NCBI RefSeq assembly: GCF_003334335.1
Contig: NZ_QOWQ01000050.1
Source of the DNA: Escherichia coli
GTDB taxonomy: Bacteria; Pseudomonadota; Gammaproteobacteria; Enterobacterales; Enterobacteriaceae
Strand: one strand, 5' to 3'
DNA: 28,028 nt
Shown here piece after piece: positions 2,614-9,395 of this stretch. The position numbers and the translations under genes were made by a program. Numbering within the stretch: position 1 is the stretch's first letter; every line of letters starts with the position of its first letter. A model generated the notes under the pieces. That model saw nothing but the letters and a program-made list of their open reading frames with translations, did no database searches and had not been told where the DNA came from.

Positions 2614-3274
2614 AACAGGTGTCCACTAGTTGATGAAAAGGTGGGCACCTACGTTACCAATACTGGCTTAATGGCTACATACGGCGGTCAGTTTACGCTT
2701 ACCATGTATCTGGCGAGTGAAGCTTTATGTCGTGTTCTGGCGTGTCCTGTGTTAGTTAGAACACGCCATCGATGGTCAGCAGGTTCATATTGCACCAGAG
2801 CGGATACAGCGTGGTGTTATGTCAGGGCTGCGCTGTTTACGTGAACACGTGGCGTACGGCCCCGCTTCCTGGCCGCTGCTGGGCATGGATCACGGCGCGA
2901 CAAAGGGGCGACTACCTGGCAGCATGTGTCCAGCCGGTTCACAATCTGGTGAAGGTTCCTTACGCTCATGGGCCATACTGATAATTCACCAGGCCATCAT
3001 TTCCAGAGGAAGACGCCGTTTGCGTAGCGTGACAGTGTCGGACTCTTCAGGGCTGTGGGTAATCAGTTCCGGGGCAAGATAGTCGCAGAGGGTTACGCAG
3101 AGAATGGTAACTGGACACTGGATCGATCAACCGATCCTTAACTGAGCGGCATGACAGCTTTCTGATGGTTTTTTTTTGATAATCTTCACATTGTGCTTCT
3201 TTTCTGTTGGATAATCTTTGTACTTGGTGGTGTACTAGGTATCCCATTATGCAGTTAAGTGAAGGTGATTAAAA

Positions 3275-4192
3275 ATGCAATGTGAATTTAAAGGGGTCAT
3301 ATCAGCATTACCCACTCCTTATGACCAATCCCAGCAAATCGATATGGAGAGTCTTCGAAAACTGATCCGTTTTAATATCGAACAAAATATTAAGGGATTG
3401 TATGTTGGAGGCTCTACTGGAGAAGCATTTCTTCAGAATGTTGCAGAGCGAGAAAAAATTCTTGAAACAGTAGCCGATGAATCAGATGGAAGACTGACAC
3501 TTATAGCGCATGTGGGCGGAATCAGTACGGCAGAAAGCGAGGTACTTGCAAAAGCTGCAAAAAAATACGGATATCATGCTATATCTGCTGTTACTCCATT
3601 TTATTATCCTTTTTCATTTGAAGAGCATTGTATCCATTACAGGAAGATTATTGATTCTGCAGATGGACTTCCTATGGTAGTTTATAATATACCGGCTCTT
3701 AGCGGAGTGCGTTTTTCTTTAGATCAGATAAATGAGCTTGTCACAATACCCAGGGTTTGTGCATTAAAACAGACATCCGGTGATTTATTCCAGATGGAAC
3801 AAATCAAAAGGAATCATCCAGAGCTTGTGTTATATAATGGTTACGATGAAATATTTGCATCAGGGTTAATTGCAGGTGCAGATGGGGGAATCGGTAGTAC
3901 ATATAATATAATGGGGTGGCGTTATCTTGAAATATTTGAAGCAGTCAAAAACAATGATGTGATTAAGGCGAAGGAAATACAGGTAGCCTGTAACCAGGTT
4001 ATTGACACTCTTATTCAGAGTGGTGTCCTGGCAGGTATAAAAACTCTTCTTTACTATATGGGGATTATAAATACTCCTGTATGCAGAAGTCCTTTTTCTC
4101 CGGTAAAGGAAAAGAATCTGGATGTATTATCAAAACTTGCAGAGCGACTGCTCGAAGAACATGACAGAAACAAAAAAATGAAAATAATCTGA
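3275..4192 (+). CDS. nanA: N-acetylneuraminate lyase, NanA paralogue (DapA/DHDPS family)
   Basis: 305-aa ORF with long colinear matches to E. coli NanA as recalled ([91 protein letters not shown]). RBS aaggtga 6 nt upstream. AT-rich codon usage. Confidence 0.9.
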
Positions 4193-4225
4193 ATAATTGC
4201 AAGATTGTTATATAGGTGAAAATGA

Positions 4226-5101
4226 ATGATAACACTGGCTGTTGATATAGGAGGAACGAAAATTTCAGCGGCGTTGATATCTGATGACGGTTCATTTTTG
4301 CTGAAAAAACAGATATCAACACCTCATGAAAGATGTCCTGACGAAATGACAGGGGCTTTACGTCTACTGGTTTCTGAAATGAAGGGAACAGCGGAGCGAT
4401 TTGCAGTAGCATCAACAGGGATTATTAATAATGGAGTATTGACAGCTCTGAATCCAGACAATCTTGGAGGGCTGAAAGAGTATCCTCTGAAAAATATAAT
4501 GGAAGATATAACTGGTTTAAATGGAAGTGTGATAAATGATGCCCAGGCAGCCGCATGGGCAGAATATACAGTTTTGCCAAAAGAAATTTGTGATATGGTT
4601 TTTATAACCGTTTCTACGGGGGTTGGAGGGGGAATTGTAGTTAACAGAAAATTATTAACAGGTGTTTCTGGATTAGCCGGACATGTTGGGCATATATTGT
4701 CCGGAGTAACGGATACAGAATGTGGATGTGGTCGTCGGGGATGCGTTGAAGCGGTTTCATCTGGTCGGGCCATCATGGGGGCAGCAAAAAATAAACTTGC
4801 AGGATATAGCACCAAATATATTTTTGAATTAGCGAGACAGGGATATAAGGAAGCAGAATTTTTGACAGAGCGTTCTGCCAGTACTATTGCTGAATTAATA
4901 GTAAGTTTAAAATTACTGCTTGATTGTCAGGTTGTTGTTGTCGGAGGAAGTGTTGGACTTGCTGATGGGTATGTTCAGAAAGTGTCGAAACATCTTTCCA
5001 TATATTCTGAAATTTGTAATGTAATGCTGTTTCCGGCATATTTCAGAAGTGACTCTGGTCTTATTGGTGCAACTCTTTGGGACCGGGATTGTATTACTTA
5101 A
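4226..5101 (+). CDS. nanK: ROK-family N-acetylmannosamine kinase, NanK-like
   Basis: 291-aa ORF; N-terminal LAVDIGGTK and motifs INDAQAAAWAE, MVFITVSTGVGGG, GHVGH, CGCGRRGCVEA match the ROK/NanK pattern. Sits directly downstream of the nanA paralogue. Confidence 0.8.
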   Translation: MITLAVDIGGTKISAALISDDGSFLLKKQISTPHERCPDEMTGALRLLVSEMKGTAERFAVASTGIINNGVLTALNPDNLGGLKEYPLKNIMEDITGLNGSVINDAQAAAWAEYTVLPKEICDMVFITVSTGVGGGIVVNRKLLTGVSGLAGHVGHILSGVTDTECGCGRRGCVEAVSSGRAIMGAAKNKLAGYSTKYIFELARQGYKEAEFLTERSASTIAELIVSLKLLLDCQVVVVGGSVGLADGYVQKVSKHLSIYSEICNVMLFPAYFRSDSGLIGATLWDRDCIT

Positions 5102-5149
5102 AGTAATACTCCAGTGTATTATAAATCCGCTATTATTGTGAGGTTTAAT

Positions 5150-6622
5150 ATGGACTCCTGTATTCAGAAAAAGCAGGTTTGGTATAAGCATCTTTCACCC
5201 AGACAGTGGAAGATATTCGGTGCGGCATGGACAGGTTATTTACTTGATGGTTTTGATTTCGTTCTGATATCTCTGGTTCTTACAGAGGTTCAGCATGAAT
5301 TCGGCTTGACGACAATAGAAGCGGCAAGCCTTATTTCCGCTGCTTTTATTTCCCGATGGTTTGGGGGGCTTGCTATTGGCGCTTTATCGGACAAGATGGG
5401 GCGCAGGATGGCAATGGTTTTAAGTATAGTGCTATTCTCTCTCGGAACCCTTGCCTGTGGTCTGGCTCCTGGATATGCAGTGATGTTTATTGCTCGCATT
5501 GTTATTGGGCTTGGTATGGCAGGTGAATATGGCTCAAGTGTAACATATGTTATCGAAAGCTGGCCTGTTCATCTCAGAAACAAGGCAAGTGGTTTTTTAA
5601 TTTCTGGATTTTCTATTGGGGGAGGTTTAGCTGCACAGGTTTATAGCATTGTAGTACCACTATGGGGCTGGCGTTCTCTTTTCTTTGTCGGCATGCTTCC
5701 AATATTATTTGCTTTTTATCTTCGCAAGAATCTTCCGGAGTCTGATGACTGGCAAAAAAGGCAACAAGAGAATAAACCCGTCAGAACAATGGTGGATATT
5801 CTGTACAGAGAAAAGAATAAATACATAAATATTCTTCTGTCTTGTATTGCATTTGCATGTCTATATGTTTGTTTTTCAGGCGTCACTGCAAACGCTGCTT
5901 TAATCACAGTTATGGCATTGTGCTGTGCGGCTGTTTTTATCAGTTTTATATATCAGGGTATGGGGAAAAGATGGCCAACAGGCATTATGTTGATGCTTGT
6001 GGTTATGTTCTGTTTCCTCTACGGATGGCCACTGCAGGCTTTTCTTCCTACATGGCTTAAGGTTGATATGCAGTATTCACCAGAAACTGTTGCTCTCATA
6101 TTTATGCTGGCAGGTTTTGGCTCTGCAGCTGGAAGTTGTATAGGTGGTTTTATGGGGGACTGGCTTGGAACCCGAAAAGCATATGTTATATCACTTCTTA
6201 TCGGTCAGCTTGTTATTATCCCCGTTTTTCTTGTGGACCGGGACTATGTATGGTTACTTGGCCTTCTAATCTTTACTCAGCAGGTTTTTGGTCAGGGGAT
6301 TGGTGCTCTGGTGCCGAAAATAATCAGTGGTTATTTTAATGTGGAGCAGCGTGCGGCAGGACTGGGGTTTATTTATAATGTAGGTTCACTTGGTGGAGCA
6401 TGTGCGCCTATTCTTGGTGCAGTTGTTGCGTCTCATACAAGTCTTGGTACAGCAATGTGTTCTCTTGCTTTTATCTTAACATTTGTTGTTCTTGTCCTTA
6501 TTGGTTTTGATATGCCATCACGTGTACAGAGATGGATCCATCCAGAAGCTGCGCTTGAATATGATACTGTCGATGGAAAACCTTTTTATGGAGCAAGAAA
6601 AAAGAATGTTGCAGAAGAATAA
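5150..6622 (+). CDS. nanT: MFS sialic acid transporter, NanT-like
   Basis: About 490 aa counted from the ATG at 5150, which has an RBS (gtgagg) 6 nt upstream; the ORF track's upstream ATG at 5114 lacks one. Near-identical blocks to E. coli NanT as recalled: [88 protein letters not shown]. Confidence 0.85.
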
Positions 6623-6646
6623 CGGATGCTATCAGGGAATAAAAAA

Positions 6647-7456
6647 ATGATTCATTACAGGGAGAATATATATTCTCTTGATAATTATGAGCGTTACATA
6701 ACTGACAGTTCGCTATTTGAGAATACTGGCGATGGCATAATATATACAGGTATTGTGCCCCTTATTACAGTTGTTGAGCCTGTTGTATCTAATCAACATA
6801 GTGTGCTGATTATACCTGGAGGTGGATACAGGAGGATTGTTTATGAAAGAGAGGGACTTGATGTTGGCAGATGGATAGCAGGTCAGGGATATACGGCATT
6901 TATTCTTTCTTACAGAATGCCCTCCGTTAATGGTTATTATTCCTTTGCAGATGCGAAGAATGCCCTGAACTTTATTTCTTACTGGGCCGGAATGTCGGAG
7001 AGAACATTTAAGAGTGTTGGGTGTATGGGGTTTTCGGCAGGTGGTCATCTTGCTGGATATATTACTCATCTCCATTATGAGGAAGAGACTTCTGTGCGTC
7101 CTGACTGGATGGCTCTGATATATCCAGTTATATCTCTTGACAGGAGTATTGCTCATCAGGGATGCCGGAAACGTCTTCTGGATGCAGGTGAAAGTGAATA
7201 TTCAGCCAGTCTTGAAAATAGTGTTACAGAGTATATGCCACCAGTCTTTATTGTGCATGCAACAGATGATAAGGATGTTCCAGTTATTCATTCTCTGAGA
7301 TATTTTAACTCTATTCGGGATAAGGGACATCATGCAGAAGCTCATTTTTTTGATAAGGGGGGTCATGGATTTGGTGTATCCGGAAAAAATGGATATCCGA
7401 TAGAAAAATGGCAAAGCCTGCTTCTGGAATGGCTTGCGGAACATAAGTTTCATTGA
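6647..7456 (+). CDS. alpha/beta-hydrolase fold esterase (fold-3 / acetyl-esterase-like); putative sugar O-acetyl esterase (est1)
   Basis: ORF in frame from 6626; preferred start is the ATG at 6647 with RBS aggga. Oxyanion-hole motif IIPGGGY, nucleophile elbow GFSAGGH, C-terminal DD..VP and GGHGF motifs. No obvious signal peptide. Starts a few nt after the nanT stop, so likely co-transcribed. Confidence 0.7.
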   Translation: MIHYRENIYSLDNYERYITDSSLFENTGDGIIYTGIVPLITVVEPVVSNQHSVLIIPGGGYRRIVYEREGLDVGRWIAGQGYTAFILSYRMPSVNGYYSFADAKNALNFISYWAGMSERTFKSVGCMGFSAGGHLAGYITHLHYEEETSVRPDWMALIYPVISLDRSIAHQGCRKRLLDAGESEYSASLENSVTEYMPPVFIVHATDDKDVPVIHSLRYFNSIRDKGHHAEAHFFDKGGHGFGVSGKNGYPIEKWQSLLLEWLAEHKFH

Positions 7457-7501
7457 GAAATCAAATTACAAGTGATAAATATATTTAATGATGAGGCATT
7501 T

Positions 7502-8212
7502 ATGAAAAAATATTATCCACTATTAACTGTAATTCTTCTTGGTTTACCTTTGTGCTCTCAGGCATTAACTCTTAATCTACGTGGGGGATACAGAAGCGCC
7601 AGTCAGGCTTATGAAACGTTGATTCAGGTTAGTCAGGGGTGGAATAATGGTTGGTGGGCAAGTTTTGAGTCAAACACCTGGAATACAATTCACAACAATG
7701 AAAATGAATTGTTTGCACTCAATTATAATAAAATAGATATAAATAAAACATATAAAATAGATGACAAATGGGCTCTAATCCCAGGGATTCAGACACAATG
7801 GATGTCAGCAGGAAGTCAGTATAACCCTTATCTGAAAATTTCGTATCAGGCAACGCCAGATCTTAATCTGGCCTTACGCTATCGCTATGACTGGAAAGCT
7901 TTCCGACAGACGGATTTAGATGGCAACAGGGCGCGTAATGATCAGCATCAGTTTGATGGTTATGTGACATACAAAATTAATGATTCATGGTTGTTTGCAT
8001 GGCAGACCACGGTATATACGAAGGTTAATAATTTCAAATATGGGAATCATAAAAAAACAGCAACTGAAAATGCATTTGTTCTGCAATATAAAATGTCACC
8101 GGTGTTCACCCCATATATAGAATATGATTACCTGGATAAACAAGGGGTGTATAAGGGGAAAGATAATAAACATGAAAATAGTTACCGTGTCGGTGTTCTG
8201 ATTAATTTTTAA
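7502..8212 (+). CDS. nanC: KdgM-family outer-membrane channel, NanC-like (N-acetylneuraminate porin)
   Basis: ORF in frame from 7472; likely start MKKYYPLL at 7502 with a signal peptide. Strong colinear match to E. coli NanC as recalled: RGGYRS.S.AYET...VS.GW.NGWWAS.ESNTWNTIH, RYRYDWKA.RQ.DL, DGYVTY.IN, FAWQTT.Y.K, ANHKK.ATENAFVLQY.M.P..TPYIEYDYLD.QGVY.G.DN..ENSYR.GV. Confidence 0.8.
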   Translation: MKKYYPLLTVILLGLPLCSQALTLNLRGGYRSASQAYETLIQVSQGWNNGWWASFESNTWNTIHNNENELFALNYNKIDINKTYKIDDKWALIPGIQTQWMSAGSQYNPYLKISYQATPDLNLALRYRYDWKAFRQTDLDGNRARNDQHQFDGYVTYKINDSWLFAWQTTVYTKVNNFKYGNHKKTATENAFVLQYKMSPVFTPYIEYDYLDKQGVYKGKDNKHENSYRVGVLINF

Positions 8213-8224
8213 AAGGTGATTACA

Positions 8225-9334
8225 ATGAAAGTGAAAAACTTTATATATCTTCCCTTCTGCTTGTTTATTGGAACGTCGGTAGCCGGAGCTTTACCGGAAA
8301 TTCCTGAACCATTTAAATATGGTGTAGGAGGGATCGAGAATGGTAAAATATATATAGGACTGGGAAGTCTGGGAAATAACTGGTATATGATAGATACAAA
8401 CCAGAGTGAAAAAAAATGGACTAAGATAGCACAATGGCCGACAGTTCCCAGAGAGCAGGCAACAGCTACTATTATTGATGGTAAGATCTATGTATTTGGA
8501 GGAATTGGAAAAGATAAAAGTGGAGTCATAACCTTACAAAAAGATGTCTATTCCTATGATATTGCTAAAGATAAATGGGAAAAATTGATGACCCGTCCCC
8601 CTGTATCTCTTGCCGGTCATGTTTCTTTTATCCATAATGGTCATGCGGTATCTACTGGTGGTGTAAATGAGAATATTTTTAATGGATACTTTTCAGATGT
8701 CGAGTTATCAAAAGGGAATTCCGCGCTGACAGAGAAAGTCAACAGGGATTATTTTAGTAAACCTGCTGATGATTATTTTTTAAATAATCATATAATTTCT
8801 TATGACCCGTCAAAAAACCAGTGGAAGAACCTGGGAACGACTCCATTTCCGGGAACTGCTGGTTCATCGGTGATTTTTGCAGAACAGCAAATTTATATAC
8901 TGGGAGGGGAGAGAAAACCGGGGCTTCGTTCTGTTAGATCCTGGACGGGGGAGCTTTCGCATGATCGAATTAAATGGTCTGAACTTCCACCAGTAGCTTC
9001 ACCCGAGGGGGTGTCAGGAGCATATGCCTCTGTTATTGATGGAAATATCTTTCTGGCCGGTGGTGCATATTTCCCGGGGGCGGCAGAAAAGTATAGCAAT
9101 GGTGAATACTGGTCTCATAAAGGACTGGATAAAGCCTATTCAAAAGAGATATATCAGCTAATAAAAAATGACTGGAAAAAAGTTGGTTCTTTGCCGGAAG
9201 GACTTGCTTATGGTGTAAGCCTGCCCTGGCAGGGGGGGATGCTCATTCTGGGTGGGGAGAAAAAAGATGGTAAAGCTGTTTCAGATGTTATTTATCTGAA
9301 AAAAAATGACAAACAAATAAAGATTGTTAAATAA
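8225..9334 (+). CDS. nanM: N-acetylneuraminate mutarotase/epimerase, NanM-like (Kelch-repeat beta-propeller)
   Basis: ORF open from a GTG at 8216; ATG at 8225 follows an aaaagg RBS. Signal peptide, then motifs matching E. coli NanM (YjhT) as recalled: IYIGLGS.G..WY..DT......KW, YVFGGIGK, NENIFNGYF, PGLR, YGVSLPW......I.GGE...GKAV.D. Confidence 0.85.
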   Translation: MKVKNFIYLPFCLFIGTSVAGALPEIPEPFKYGVGGIENGKIYIGLGSLGNNWYMIDTNQSEKKWTKIAQWPTVPREQATATIIDGKIYVFGGIGKDKSGVITLQKDVYSYDIAKDKWEKLMTRPPVSLAGHVSFIHNGHAVSTGGVNENIFNGYFSDVELSKGNSALTEKVNRDYFSKPADDYFLNNHIISYDPSKNQWKNLGTTPFPGTAGSSVIFAEQQIYILGGERKPGLRSVRSWTGELSHDRIKWSELPPVASPEGVSGAYASVIDGNIFLAGGAYFPGAAEKYSNGEYWSHKGLDKAYSKEIYQLIKNDWKKVGSLPEGLAYGVSLPWQGGMLILGGEKKDGKAVSDVIYLKKNDKQIKIVK

Positions 9335-9342
9335 CTGTAATG

Positions 9343-9380
9343 CAGGTGACTGTATTAGTTGTTCAGTCACCTGAGTTATT
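9343..9380 (+). terminator. Rho-independent terminator-like hairpin after the nanM-like gene
   Basis: Perfect 10-bp inverted repeat caggtgactg (9343-9352) / cagtcacctg (9364-9373) with 11-nt loop, followed by a T-rich tract (agttatttta). Confidence 0.55.
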
Positions 9381-9395
9381 TTAATGGGGTTTATA

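What the first reader, a model, noticed from the sequence alone, without database searches (positions are those of the whole stretch)
3226..3244. Degenerate GGTATA-type repeats upstream of the nanA paralogue (possible NanR operator)
About 30-45 bp upstream of the nanA-like start the sequence ggtGGTGTActaGGTATCc contains two hexamers, each one mismatch from GGTATA, separated by 3 nt. This resembles the spacing of the NanR operator (tandem GGTATA repeats) as recalled. It would allow control by the island's own NanR-like regulator or cross-talk with a core NanR. No comparable repeats are seen in the nanR-nanS divergent region.
Basis: inference. Interest (0 to 1): 0.4.

Follow-up and report, generated by a model that had tools for sequence, protein, structure and literature searches.

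The report
NanR-type operator of the nan-9 operon
The two GGTATA-like hexamers in front of the second sialic-acid lyase gene are almost certainly a real repressor-binding site: a two-repeat version of the known E. coli NanR operator that controls the accessory 'nan-9' sialic-acid operon, so it is an expected kind of element that had not been described for this cluster.

Summary
GGTGTA-cta-GGTATC lies at 3229-3243, 31 nt before the nanA' ATG. On its own the match is weak: 4 matches at up to 2 mismatches in the window against 1.67 expected.

Comparison makes it strong. The window carries the E. coli GI-pheV 'nan-9' cluster. Three other lineages carry diverged versions of this cluster: an E. coli contig, an IncFIB plasmid and the Proteus chromosome (NanR' 71-79% identical, nanA' 70% nt identical to the window). 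All carry TGGTGTACTAGGTAT unchanged, while flanks are 33-48% identical.

In all four lineages the first hexamer starts 38 nt after a CRP-like site (window 3175-3190). About 70 Enterobacterales core nanA promoters place GGTATA-aca-GGTATA-aa-GGTnnn 37-40 nt after their CRP-like site. The site is therefore positionally homologous to repeats 1-2 of the canonical operator. The third repeat is missing.

The island regulator NanR' (10355-11089, minus strand) keeps the recognition helix and 8 of 9 proposed DNA-contact residues. Only the wing residue differs (Asn89 to Lys).

The motif occurs once in the cluster, upstream of the seven-gene operon nanA'-nanK'-nanT'-esterase-nanC'-nanM'-esterase. Binding, inducer and transcription start are untested. 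Verdict: new member of a known kind, modest interest.

The parts
3228..3244 (+). Operator core TGGTGTACTAGGTATCC, the predicted NanR'/NanR binding site
   Evidence: TGGTGTACTAGGTAT is identical in the window, L010, L088 and Proteus L006/L014. The invariant pattern TGGTnTAnnAGGTA is shared with core nanA operators.
3229..3234 (+). Hexamer 1, GGTGTA (canonical GGTATA); positional homologue of repeat 1 of the K-12 operator
   Evidence: It starts 38 nt after the CRP-like site, as in the core promoters (37-40 nt).
3238..3243 (+). Hexamer 2, GGTATC (GGTATA in Proteus); positional homologue of repeat 2
3246..3251 (+). Position of the canonical third repeat; reads ATTATG (3 of 6, no GG), so it is vestigial or absent
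   Evidence: Not conserved among island-type lineages: ATTATG, AGTGCA, ATTATA, AATTTT. Core promoters keep GGT here (one has GGC).
3175..3190 (+). CRP-like site TTTGAtaatctTCACA
   Evidence: Conserved at 78% mean pairwise identity with fixed spacing in all island-type lineages. It corresponds to AGTGAn6TCGCA of core nanA promoters.
3208..3213 (+). Putative -35 (TGGATA); inference only
   Evidence: A TGG triplet is conserved in all four lineages, 17 nt upstream of the putative -10. No TSS data.
3231..3236 (+). Putative -10 (TGTACT) inside hexamer 1, with predicted TSS near 3243-3244; inference by homology with TATAAC in the K-12 nanA operator
   Evidence: Geometry. The consensus scan finds no promoter here, and none at the real K-12 nanA promoter either.
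3275..10319 (+). Predicted regulated operon: nanA', nanK', sialate MFS transporter, esterase, KdgM/NanC-like porin, NanM-like epimerase, esterase
   Evidence: RefSeq annotation. NCBIfam matches. Intergenic gaps are at most 49 bp. A hairpin at 10340-10367 follows the last gene.
10355..11089 (-). nanR', the island NanR paralogue and predicted cognate repressor
   Evidence: 52% identical to K-12 NanR, with the VGRPSVREAL helix identical. NCBIfam NF003011 NanR scores 273 bits against a cutoff of 260. The clade-specific wing is YNKGEKASV.
2759..3154 (-). IS4-like transposase remnant and its terminal repeat; it truncates the native upstream region 21 bp before the CRP-like site
   Evidence: Annotation. 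Comparison with IS4 ends.

Best explanation
The site is the operator of the nan-9 operon, a two-repeat member of the NanR (GGTATA)n operator family.

Proposed mechanism:
- A FadR-type GntR repressor binds the tandem hexamers GGTGTA-cta-GGTATC. The most likely binder is the cluster's own NanR' (10355-11089). The core NanR may bind as well.
- These hexamers overlap the -10/+1 region of a weak promoter.
- That promoter is activated by CRP-cAMP from the site at 3175-3190, about 61 bp upstream of the predicted start.
- Repressor binding blocks RNA polymerase. A sialic acid bound in the Zn-containing FCD domain releases the repressor.
- The seven genes nanA' to the second esterase (3275-10319) are then transcribed.

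What is shown: the sequence, its conservation, its positional homology to repeats 1-2 of the canonical operator, and conservation of the regulator's DNA-reading residues.

What is inferred: which regulator binds, the stoichiometry (probably two dimers), the transcription start, the CRP class and the inducer.
For: 1. Sequence is as described.

2. Phylogenetic footprint. Four island-type lineages have NanR' 71-79% identical to the window and nanA' DNA 70-78% identical among lineages (70-71% to the window). All share TGGTGTACTAGGTAT at 100%. The 37-nt spacer upstream averages 48% pairwise identity and the 45 nt downstream 33%.

3. Positional homology. The gap from the CRP-like site to the first hexamer is 38 nt in all island types and 37-40 nt (mostly 38 or 39) in the core nanA promoters where a CRP-like site was found, all from different GTDB species.

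4. Specificity. TGGTnTAnnAGGTA occurs 75 times in 1.44 Mb of those loci, every time upstream of nanA, where about 0.7 is expected by chance (my estimate). It occurs once in each island-type locus.

5. Regulator. NanR' retains S33, E58, R59, G68, R69, S71, R73 and E91 of the nine proposed DNA-contact residues of K-12 NanR (PMC8012715; alignments). It also retains all four Zn ligands and 7 of 10 Neu5Ac-contact residues. It passes the NCBIfam NanR cutoff.

6. Two perfect GGTATA repeats suffice for high-affinity binding of K-12 NanR (KD about 25 nM), whereas one repeat does not (PMC8012715).

7. nanR' and the site travel together in three different genomic contexts.
Against: - No binding, footprint, reporter or TSS data exist for this site in anything I could search.
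- Each hexamer has a mismatch and the third repeat is missing. Three-dimer cooperative assembly as in K-12 cannot be assumed.
- The N-terminal extension that mediates cooperativity is shorter in NanR' (24 aa, and 13 aa in Proteus, against 32).
- The putative -10 (TGTACT) lacks the conserved A at position 2.
- Part of the conservation could reflect promoter function rather than repressor binding.
- An IS4-like remnant ends 21 bp upstream of the CRP-like site and may have removed upstream elements.
Confidence: 0.8

Rival explanations
1. The operator is real, but in E. coli it is used mainly by the core NanR (cross-talk). NanR' would be redundant or would act elsewhere.
For: The recognition helices of NanR and NanR' are identical. 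K-12 NanR binds two-repeat operators and tolerates GGTGCA in the third repeat of nanC. Nearly all E. coli carry the core nanR (PMC10088187).
Against: The site and nanR' are co-inherited in Proteus and on plasmids. All four NanR' lineages have GGTGTA and a cta spacer, while none of about 70 core-NanR promoters has GGTGTA. That pattern fits a dedicated pair. The two readings are not mutually exclusive.
Confidence: 0.12
2. The conserved block is only the core promoter (-10, discriminator, +1) kept for RNA polymerase. No repressor binds it.
For: By homology with K-12, the block overlaps the predicted -10/+1.
Against: Fifteen contiguous invariant bases with a GGTnTA-N3-GGTA repeat far exceed what a weak -10 requires. 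The same repeat is the experimentally footprinted NanR site in K-12 (Kalivoda 2003, from my own knowledge; PMC8012715). A NanR paralogue is always adjacent.
Confidence: 0.05
3. The site is a single-dimer palindromic GntR operator (TGGTGTAC-tag-GTATACCA) rather than tandem direct repeats.
For: In Proteus the 19-mer TGGTGTACTAGGTATACCA is an imperfect inverted repeat, with 7 of 9 pairs. FadR-family proteins usually bind palindromes (PMC8012715).
Against: The outer ACCA half is not conserved in the three E. coli-borne lineages (CCCA, CCTA, CCCA). TGGT and ACCA are 11 nt apart, against 3 nt in the FadR operator (my own knowledge). Positional homology is to the direct repeats 1-2 of the canonical operator.
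Confidence: 0.05
4. The resemblance is chance and has no function.
For: The bare pattern is not enriched in the window: 4 matches against 1.67 expected.
Against: Conservation, fixed spacing and specificity.
Confidence: 0.02

Closest known systems
E. coli K-12 NanR operator, (GGTATA)3, at nanATEKQ, nanCMS and nanXY (Kalivoda et al. 2003, 2013; Horne et al. 2021, PMC8012715)
   Same: Tandem direct GGTATA-type hexamers with a 3-nt first spacer. The same distance (38-39 nt) downstream of a CRP-like site. It lies in front of a nanA gene. A NanR-family repressor with an identical recognition helix is encoded nearby.
   Different: Two repeats instead of three. Hexamer 1 is GGTGTA and hexamer 2 is GGTATC in E. 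coli (GGTATA in Proteus). The spacer is cta rather than aca. The regulator has wing Asn89 replaced by Lys and a shorter N-terminal extension of 24 aa against 32.
nan-9 / GI-pheV nan module of ExPEC (Tiwari et al. 2023, PMC10088187; PMC11537424)
   Same: This is the same gene cluster, carried by 689 of 5426 complete E. coli genomes at 98.7% identity or more over a 231-bp query spanning the site (window 3100-3330).
   Different: Those papers describe gene content, host association and growth phenotypes. They contain no promoter or operator analysis; the word 'operator' does not occur.
FadR operator (palindromic TGGT-N3-ACCA, FadR subfamily of GntR)
   Same: The TGGT half-site is read by a homologous winged helix (PMC8012715).
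   Different: Here the TGGT/GGT elements are direct repeats with a 9-bp period. They are not an inverted repeat bound symmetrically.

Membership tests
NanR (GGTATA)n operator | At least two tandem direct GGTATA-type hexamers | tested here: met
   GGTGTA and GGTATC, 5 of 6 each. The GGT and the T at position 5 are invariant across island and core types.
NanR (GGTATA)n operator | Spacers of 2-3 nt (8-9 bp period) | tested here: met
   A 3-nt spacer, as between repeats 1 and 2 in K-12.
NanR (GGTATA)n operator | Three repeats | tested here: not met
   The third position reads ATTATG and is not conserved. Two repeats are sufficient for K-12 NanR in vitro.
NanR (GGTATA)n operator | Located in the promoter of a sialic-acid gene, at a fixed distance from the CRP site | tested here: met
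   38 nt after the CRP-like site, against 37-40 nt in about 70 core promoters.
NanR (GGTATA)n operator | Conserved in orthologous loci beyond the neutral background | tested here: met
   100% identity against 33-48% in the flanks, in four lineages.
NanR (GGTATA)n operator | Bound by NanR and released by Neu5Ac | not testable with these tools
   Needs EMSA, footprinting or reporter assays.
NanR protein (FadR-type GntR with Zn-FCD domain), for nanR' at 10355-11089 | Score above the curated NCBIfam NanR cutoff, with GntR and FCD domains | tested here: met
   NF003011 scores 273.1 bits against a cutoff of 260. PF00392 and PF07729 are present.
NanR protein (FadR-type GntR with Zn-FCD domain), for nanR' at 10355-11089 | The nine proposed DNA-contact residues | tested here: inconclusive
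   8 of 9 are identical. Wing Asn89 is Lys in the whole NanR' clade.
NanR protein (FadR-type GntR with Zn-FCD domain), for nanR' at 10355-11089 | 32-residue N-terminal extension that mediates cooperativity | tested here: inconclusive
   24 residues in the window and 13 in Proteus. Only the RKPxxxKKLSE part is shared.
NanR protein (FadR-type GntR with Zn-FCD domain), for nanR' at 10355-11089 | Zn ligands and Neu5Ac-contact residues | tested here: met
   D172, H176, H222 and H244 are all conserved. 7 of 10 Neu5Ac contacts are identical; the changes are N165P, R203K, H214N and S218T.
CRP-dependent (class I-like) promoter | TGTGA-N6-TCACA site at about -61.5 | tested here: inconclusive
   The TTTGAtaatctTCACA site is present and conserved. 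Its position relative to the TSS cannot be tested without TSS data.

The most novel reading that the evidence does not exclude
NanR' and its GGTGTA-cta-GGTAT(C/A) operator may form a regulator-operator pair that has diverged enough to be insulated from the core NanR/(GGTATA)3 system. The differences are the wing change Asn89 to Lys, a shorter cooperativity arm, and two repeats instead of three. With four altered effector-pocket residues, NanR' might also respond to a different sialic acid, such as an O-acetylated form or Neu5Gc. ExPEC lineages such as ST131, ST73 and ST69 would then run two independent sialic-acid circuits. Conversely, NanR' could act on the core operators, including the nanC-fimB region.
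Probability: 0.25. Interest if true: 0.55.

Novelty: new member of a known kind. Interest (0 to 1): 0.35.

Why it matters
[quoted passage not shown] It is common in ST131, ST73 and ST69 (PMC10088187), and its regulation has not been described.

The analysis gives three things.
- It pins down the single promoter/operator module that should control seven of the nine genes. That yields concrete targets for mutagenesis and reporter work.
- It offers a natural two-repeat operator with a variant wing and a short N-terminal arm. This can test the three-dimer cooperative model of NanR.
- It frames a testable question: do the core and accessory sialic-acid systems cross-regulate, including effects on fimB and type 1 fimbriae?

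It does not reveal a new kind of mechanism.

Tried and rejected
- **Bare pattern statistics** in the window are not significant, so chance could not be excluded that way.
- **Footprinting within E. coli** is impossible. All 689 carriers are at least 98.7% identical here. The only variants seen are G/A at 3227, just outside the core, and one strain with A3237G in the spacer.
- **The consensus sigma-70 scan** finds no promoter at the site. It also misses the real K-12 nanA promoter, so it is uninformative for these weak promoters.
- **Further operators in the cluster** were sought in the nanR'-nanS' intergenic region and at internal gaps. None was found. The other near-matches lie in coding sequence or in Esr41.
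- **RNA element**: Rfam finds nothing near the site.
- **Palindrome reading**: considered and ranked low (see rivals).
- **A position weight matrix from core operators** was not used. Those operators are nearly invariant, so it would only restate mismatch counts.
- **Kalivoda 2003 and 2013** (PMC166481, PMC3807447) are not held. The mapped K-12 TSS and the operator mutagenesis could therefore not be read. Statements on them rest on my own knowledge and on Horne 2021.

Full report
**What the window is.** The region around the finding is 100% identical to E. coli chromosomes. RefSeq annotation of one of them translates to these window coordinates:
- IS66 copies, then a degenerate IS4-like transposase remnant (2759-3157, minus strand).
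- N-acetylneuraminate lyase nanA' (3275-4192).
- N-acetylmannosamine kinase (4226-5101).
- A sialate MFS transporter (5150-6622).
- An alpha/beta hydrolase (6626-7456).
- A KdgM/NanC-like porin (7502-8212).
- A NanM-like epimerase (8225-9334).
- A second hydrolase (9384-10319).
- nanR on the minus strand (10355-11089).
- A sialate O-acetylesterase (11189-12175).
- shiF, then the start of the aerobactin operon (iucA-iucC in the annotated stretch); the remaining ORFs of the window were not checked.

NCBIfam agrees with these names. This is the 'nan-9' cluster of Tiwari et al. 2023 (PMC10088187) and the 'nan module' of GI-pheV (PMC11537424). Neither paper analyses its promoter or operator. In the collection searched, 689 of 5426 complete E. 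coli genomes carry the region at 98.7% identity or more.

**The observation.** Positions 3226-3244 read ggtGGTGTActaGGTATCc. The two hexamers are at 3229-3234 and 3238-3243, each one mismatch from GGTATA, with a 3-nt spacer. They lie 31-46 nt before the ATG at 3275.

The three K-12 operators, read directly from MG1655, are GGTATAacaGGTATAaaGGTATA (nanA and nanX) and GGTATAacaGGTATAaaGGTGCA (nanC).

As a pattern the match is unremarkable. There are 4 matches at up to 2 mismatches in 28 kb against 1.67 expected. Exact GGTATA is not enriched either.

**Where the native upstream DNA starts.** Window 3116-3154 is the end of an IS4-like element. Its terminal sequence ...ccttaactgagcggcatga matches the K-12 IS4 end ...ccttaactgatcggcatta. 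Only about 120 bp (3155-3274) of native DNA precede nanA'.

**Comparative evidence.** Within E. coli there is no useful diversity. I therefore searched for diverged relatives of the island regulator and fetched their contexts. Three further lineages of the same cluster exist:
- Proteus chromosomes (L006-L009, L014; NanR' 79%).
- An E. coli contig type (L010, L011; NanR' 71%).
- An IncFIB conjugative plasmid from a mouse E. coli (L088; NanR' 76%).

Their nanA' genes are only 70% identical to the window at the DNA level. Gene order also differs: nanS' precedes nanA' in L010 and L088, and Proteus has no nanK'. Upstream of nanA' all of them nonetheless read TGGTGTACTAGGTAT(C/A)C.

In an ungapped alignment anchored on that block, mean pairwise identity is:

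| Segment | Mean pairwise identity |
|---|---|
| 15-mer core | 100% |
| CRP-like 16-mer | 78% |
| 37-nt spacer between them | 48% |
| 45 nt downstream of the core | 33% |

The operator core is thus more conserved than the coding sequence it precedes.

**Positional homology with the canonical operator.** A protein-guided scan of one genome per GTDB species returned 76 nanA loci. About 70 of them have a core-type NanR (79-99% identical to K-12) directly upstream. All of these carry CTGGTATA-a(c/t)a-GGTATA-(a/c)a-GGTnnn.

The gap between a CRP-like site (AGTGAn6TCGCA) and the first hexamer is 38 or 39 nt in 71 promoters, and 37 or 40 nt in four. The island-type promoters have (T/C)(T/G)TGAn6TCACA followed by exactly 38 nt and then GGTGTA. 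In the window the CRP-like site is TTTGAtaatctTCACA at 3175-3190.

A six-sequence alignment shows the shared invariant columns TGA...TC.C and TGGT.TA..AGGTA. The island site is therefore the homologue of repeats 1 and 2 of the canonical operator.

The canonical third repeat is not retained: the position reads ATTATG, AGTGCA, ATTATA or AATTTT in the four lineages. Proteus instead has an extra GGTATA or GGCATA 4 nt upstream of the first hexamer.

**Specificity.** TGGTnTAnnAGGTA occurs 75 times in the 1.44 Mb of these loci on both strands. Every occurrence is upstream of nanA, where I estimate about 0.7 by chance. It occurs exactly once in the window, L010, L088, L006 and L014. No such site exists in the nanR'-nanS' divergent regions.

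**More distant relatives use the same motif.**
- L081 has a NanR 72% identical to K-12 and reads GGTATActaGGTACAtaGGTATA.
- L091 reads GGTATAataGGTATAaaGGTGGT.
- L092 has a NanR 43% identical to the island protein. It reads TGGTATACTAGCTAT in front of a TonB-receptor/SSF/nanE/nanK operon.

**The regulator.** NanR' is 52% identical to K-12 NanR without gaps over 227 residues. The helix VGRPSVREAL is identical.

Horne et al. 2021 propose nine DNA-contact residues: S33, E58, R59, G68, R69, S71, R73, N89 and E91. Eight are identical in NanR'. Only the wing residue N89 is Lys, and this holds throughout the NanR' clade (YNKGEKASV against INNGERARV).

The N-terminal extension, shown by the same authors to mediate cooperative assembly of three dimers, is 24 residues here and 13 in Proteus, against 32 in K-12.

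The four Zn ligands are conserved. Seven of ten Neu5Ac contacts are identical; the changes are N165P, R203K, H214N and S218T (mapped). NanR' passes the curated NCBIfam NanR threshold.

Horne et al. also show that two GGTATA repeats give K-12 NanR a KD of about 25 nM, that one repeat is not bound, and that lengthening the spacers abolishes binding. A two-repeat operator is therefore functionally plausible.

**Proposed mechanism.** This part is inference. If the CRP-like site is centred near -61.5, the start falls near 3243-3244. The -10 would then be TGTACT (3231-3236), the counterpart of TATAAC inside the first K-12 repeat. The conserved TGG (TGGATA, 3208-3213) sits at the -35 position with a 17-nt spacer.

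A repressor on hexamers 1-2 would then occlude -10/+1. From my own knowledge of Kalivoda et al. 2003, NanR protects about 30 bp covering the K-12 nanA promoter. That paper could not be read here.

The downstream genes are separated by at most 49 bp. A hairpin follows the last one at 10340-10367. One promoter/operator probably controls seven of the nine nan-9 genes, while nanR' and nanS' have no recognisable operator.

**Which regulator binds?** NanR' is favoured for two reasons:
- The site and nanR' are inherited together in three genomic contexts.
- All NanR' lineages have GGTGTA and a cta spacer, whereas no core-NanR promoter has GGTGTA.

Because the recognition helices are identical, binding by core NanR cannot be excluded.

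**Assessment.** It is a new member of a known kind of operator. It is of modest interest, mainly as an entry point to the regulation of a human-associated ExPEC locus and as a natural variant for testing the NanR cooperativity model.

Noticed in passing
window 23007-23080 (-): A full-length match to the Rfam family Esr41, an enterohaemorrhagic E. coli sRNA: 108.6 bits against a gathering score of 102. It lies in the window's 3' part, downstream of the nan-9 and iuc genes; the flanking genes there were not identified.
   Followed up: no
window 2759-3154: A degenerate IS4-like transposase remnant whose terminal repeat ends only 21 bp upstream of the CRP-like site of the nan-9 promoter. Any native regulatory DNA further upstream has been lost. 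The 20 bp just outside the IS end loosely resemble the flank of another IS4 copy (L005).
   Followed up: partly
window 3178-3186 and 3210-3218: A 9-bp direct repeat GATAATCTT, 32 bp apart. The first copy overlaps the CRP-like site and the second overlaps the putative -35. It is specific to the E. coli chromosomal nan-9 version and absent from L010, L088 and Proteus. Its significance is unknown.
   Followed up: no
window 10340-10367: A terminator-like hairpin (10 pairs) between the convergent second esterase gene and nanR'. It probably terminates both transcripts.
   Followed up: no
window 3227 and 3237; L089, L090, L013: Most E. coli carriers, including ST131, have A at 3227 where the window has G. 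This is immediately 5' of the operator core. One O25b:H4 strain has A3237G in the spacer, next to hexamer 2.
   Followed up: partly
L010 7746-9057; L088 8710-10000; L006 9897-17838: Gene order of the cluster differs between lineages. On the plasmid and contig versions nanS' sits between nanR' and nanA', so the CRP/operator module is an internal promoter after nanS'. Proteus lacks nanK' and has an 800-bp AT-rich region upstream of nanA'.
   Followed up: partly
L092 2650-2670: A distant NanR homologue (43% identical) sits next to TGGTATACTAGCTAT, upstream of a TonB-dependent receptor/SSF transporter/nanE/nanK operon in a GC-rich organism. The motif, including the cta spacer, therefore reaches well beyond Enterobacterales.
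   Followed up: no
window 11189-12175: The nanS'-like sialate O-acetylesterase has no NCBIfam match at E<=1e-10, although its Proteus and plasmid counterparts carry Pfam SASA (PF03629).
   Followed up: no
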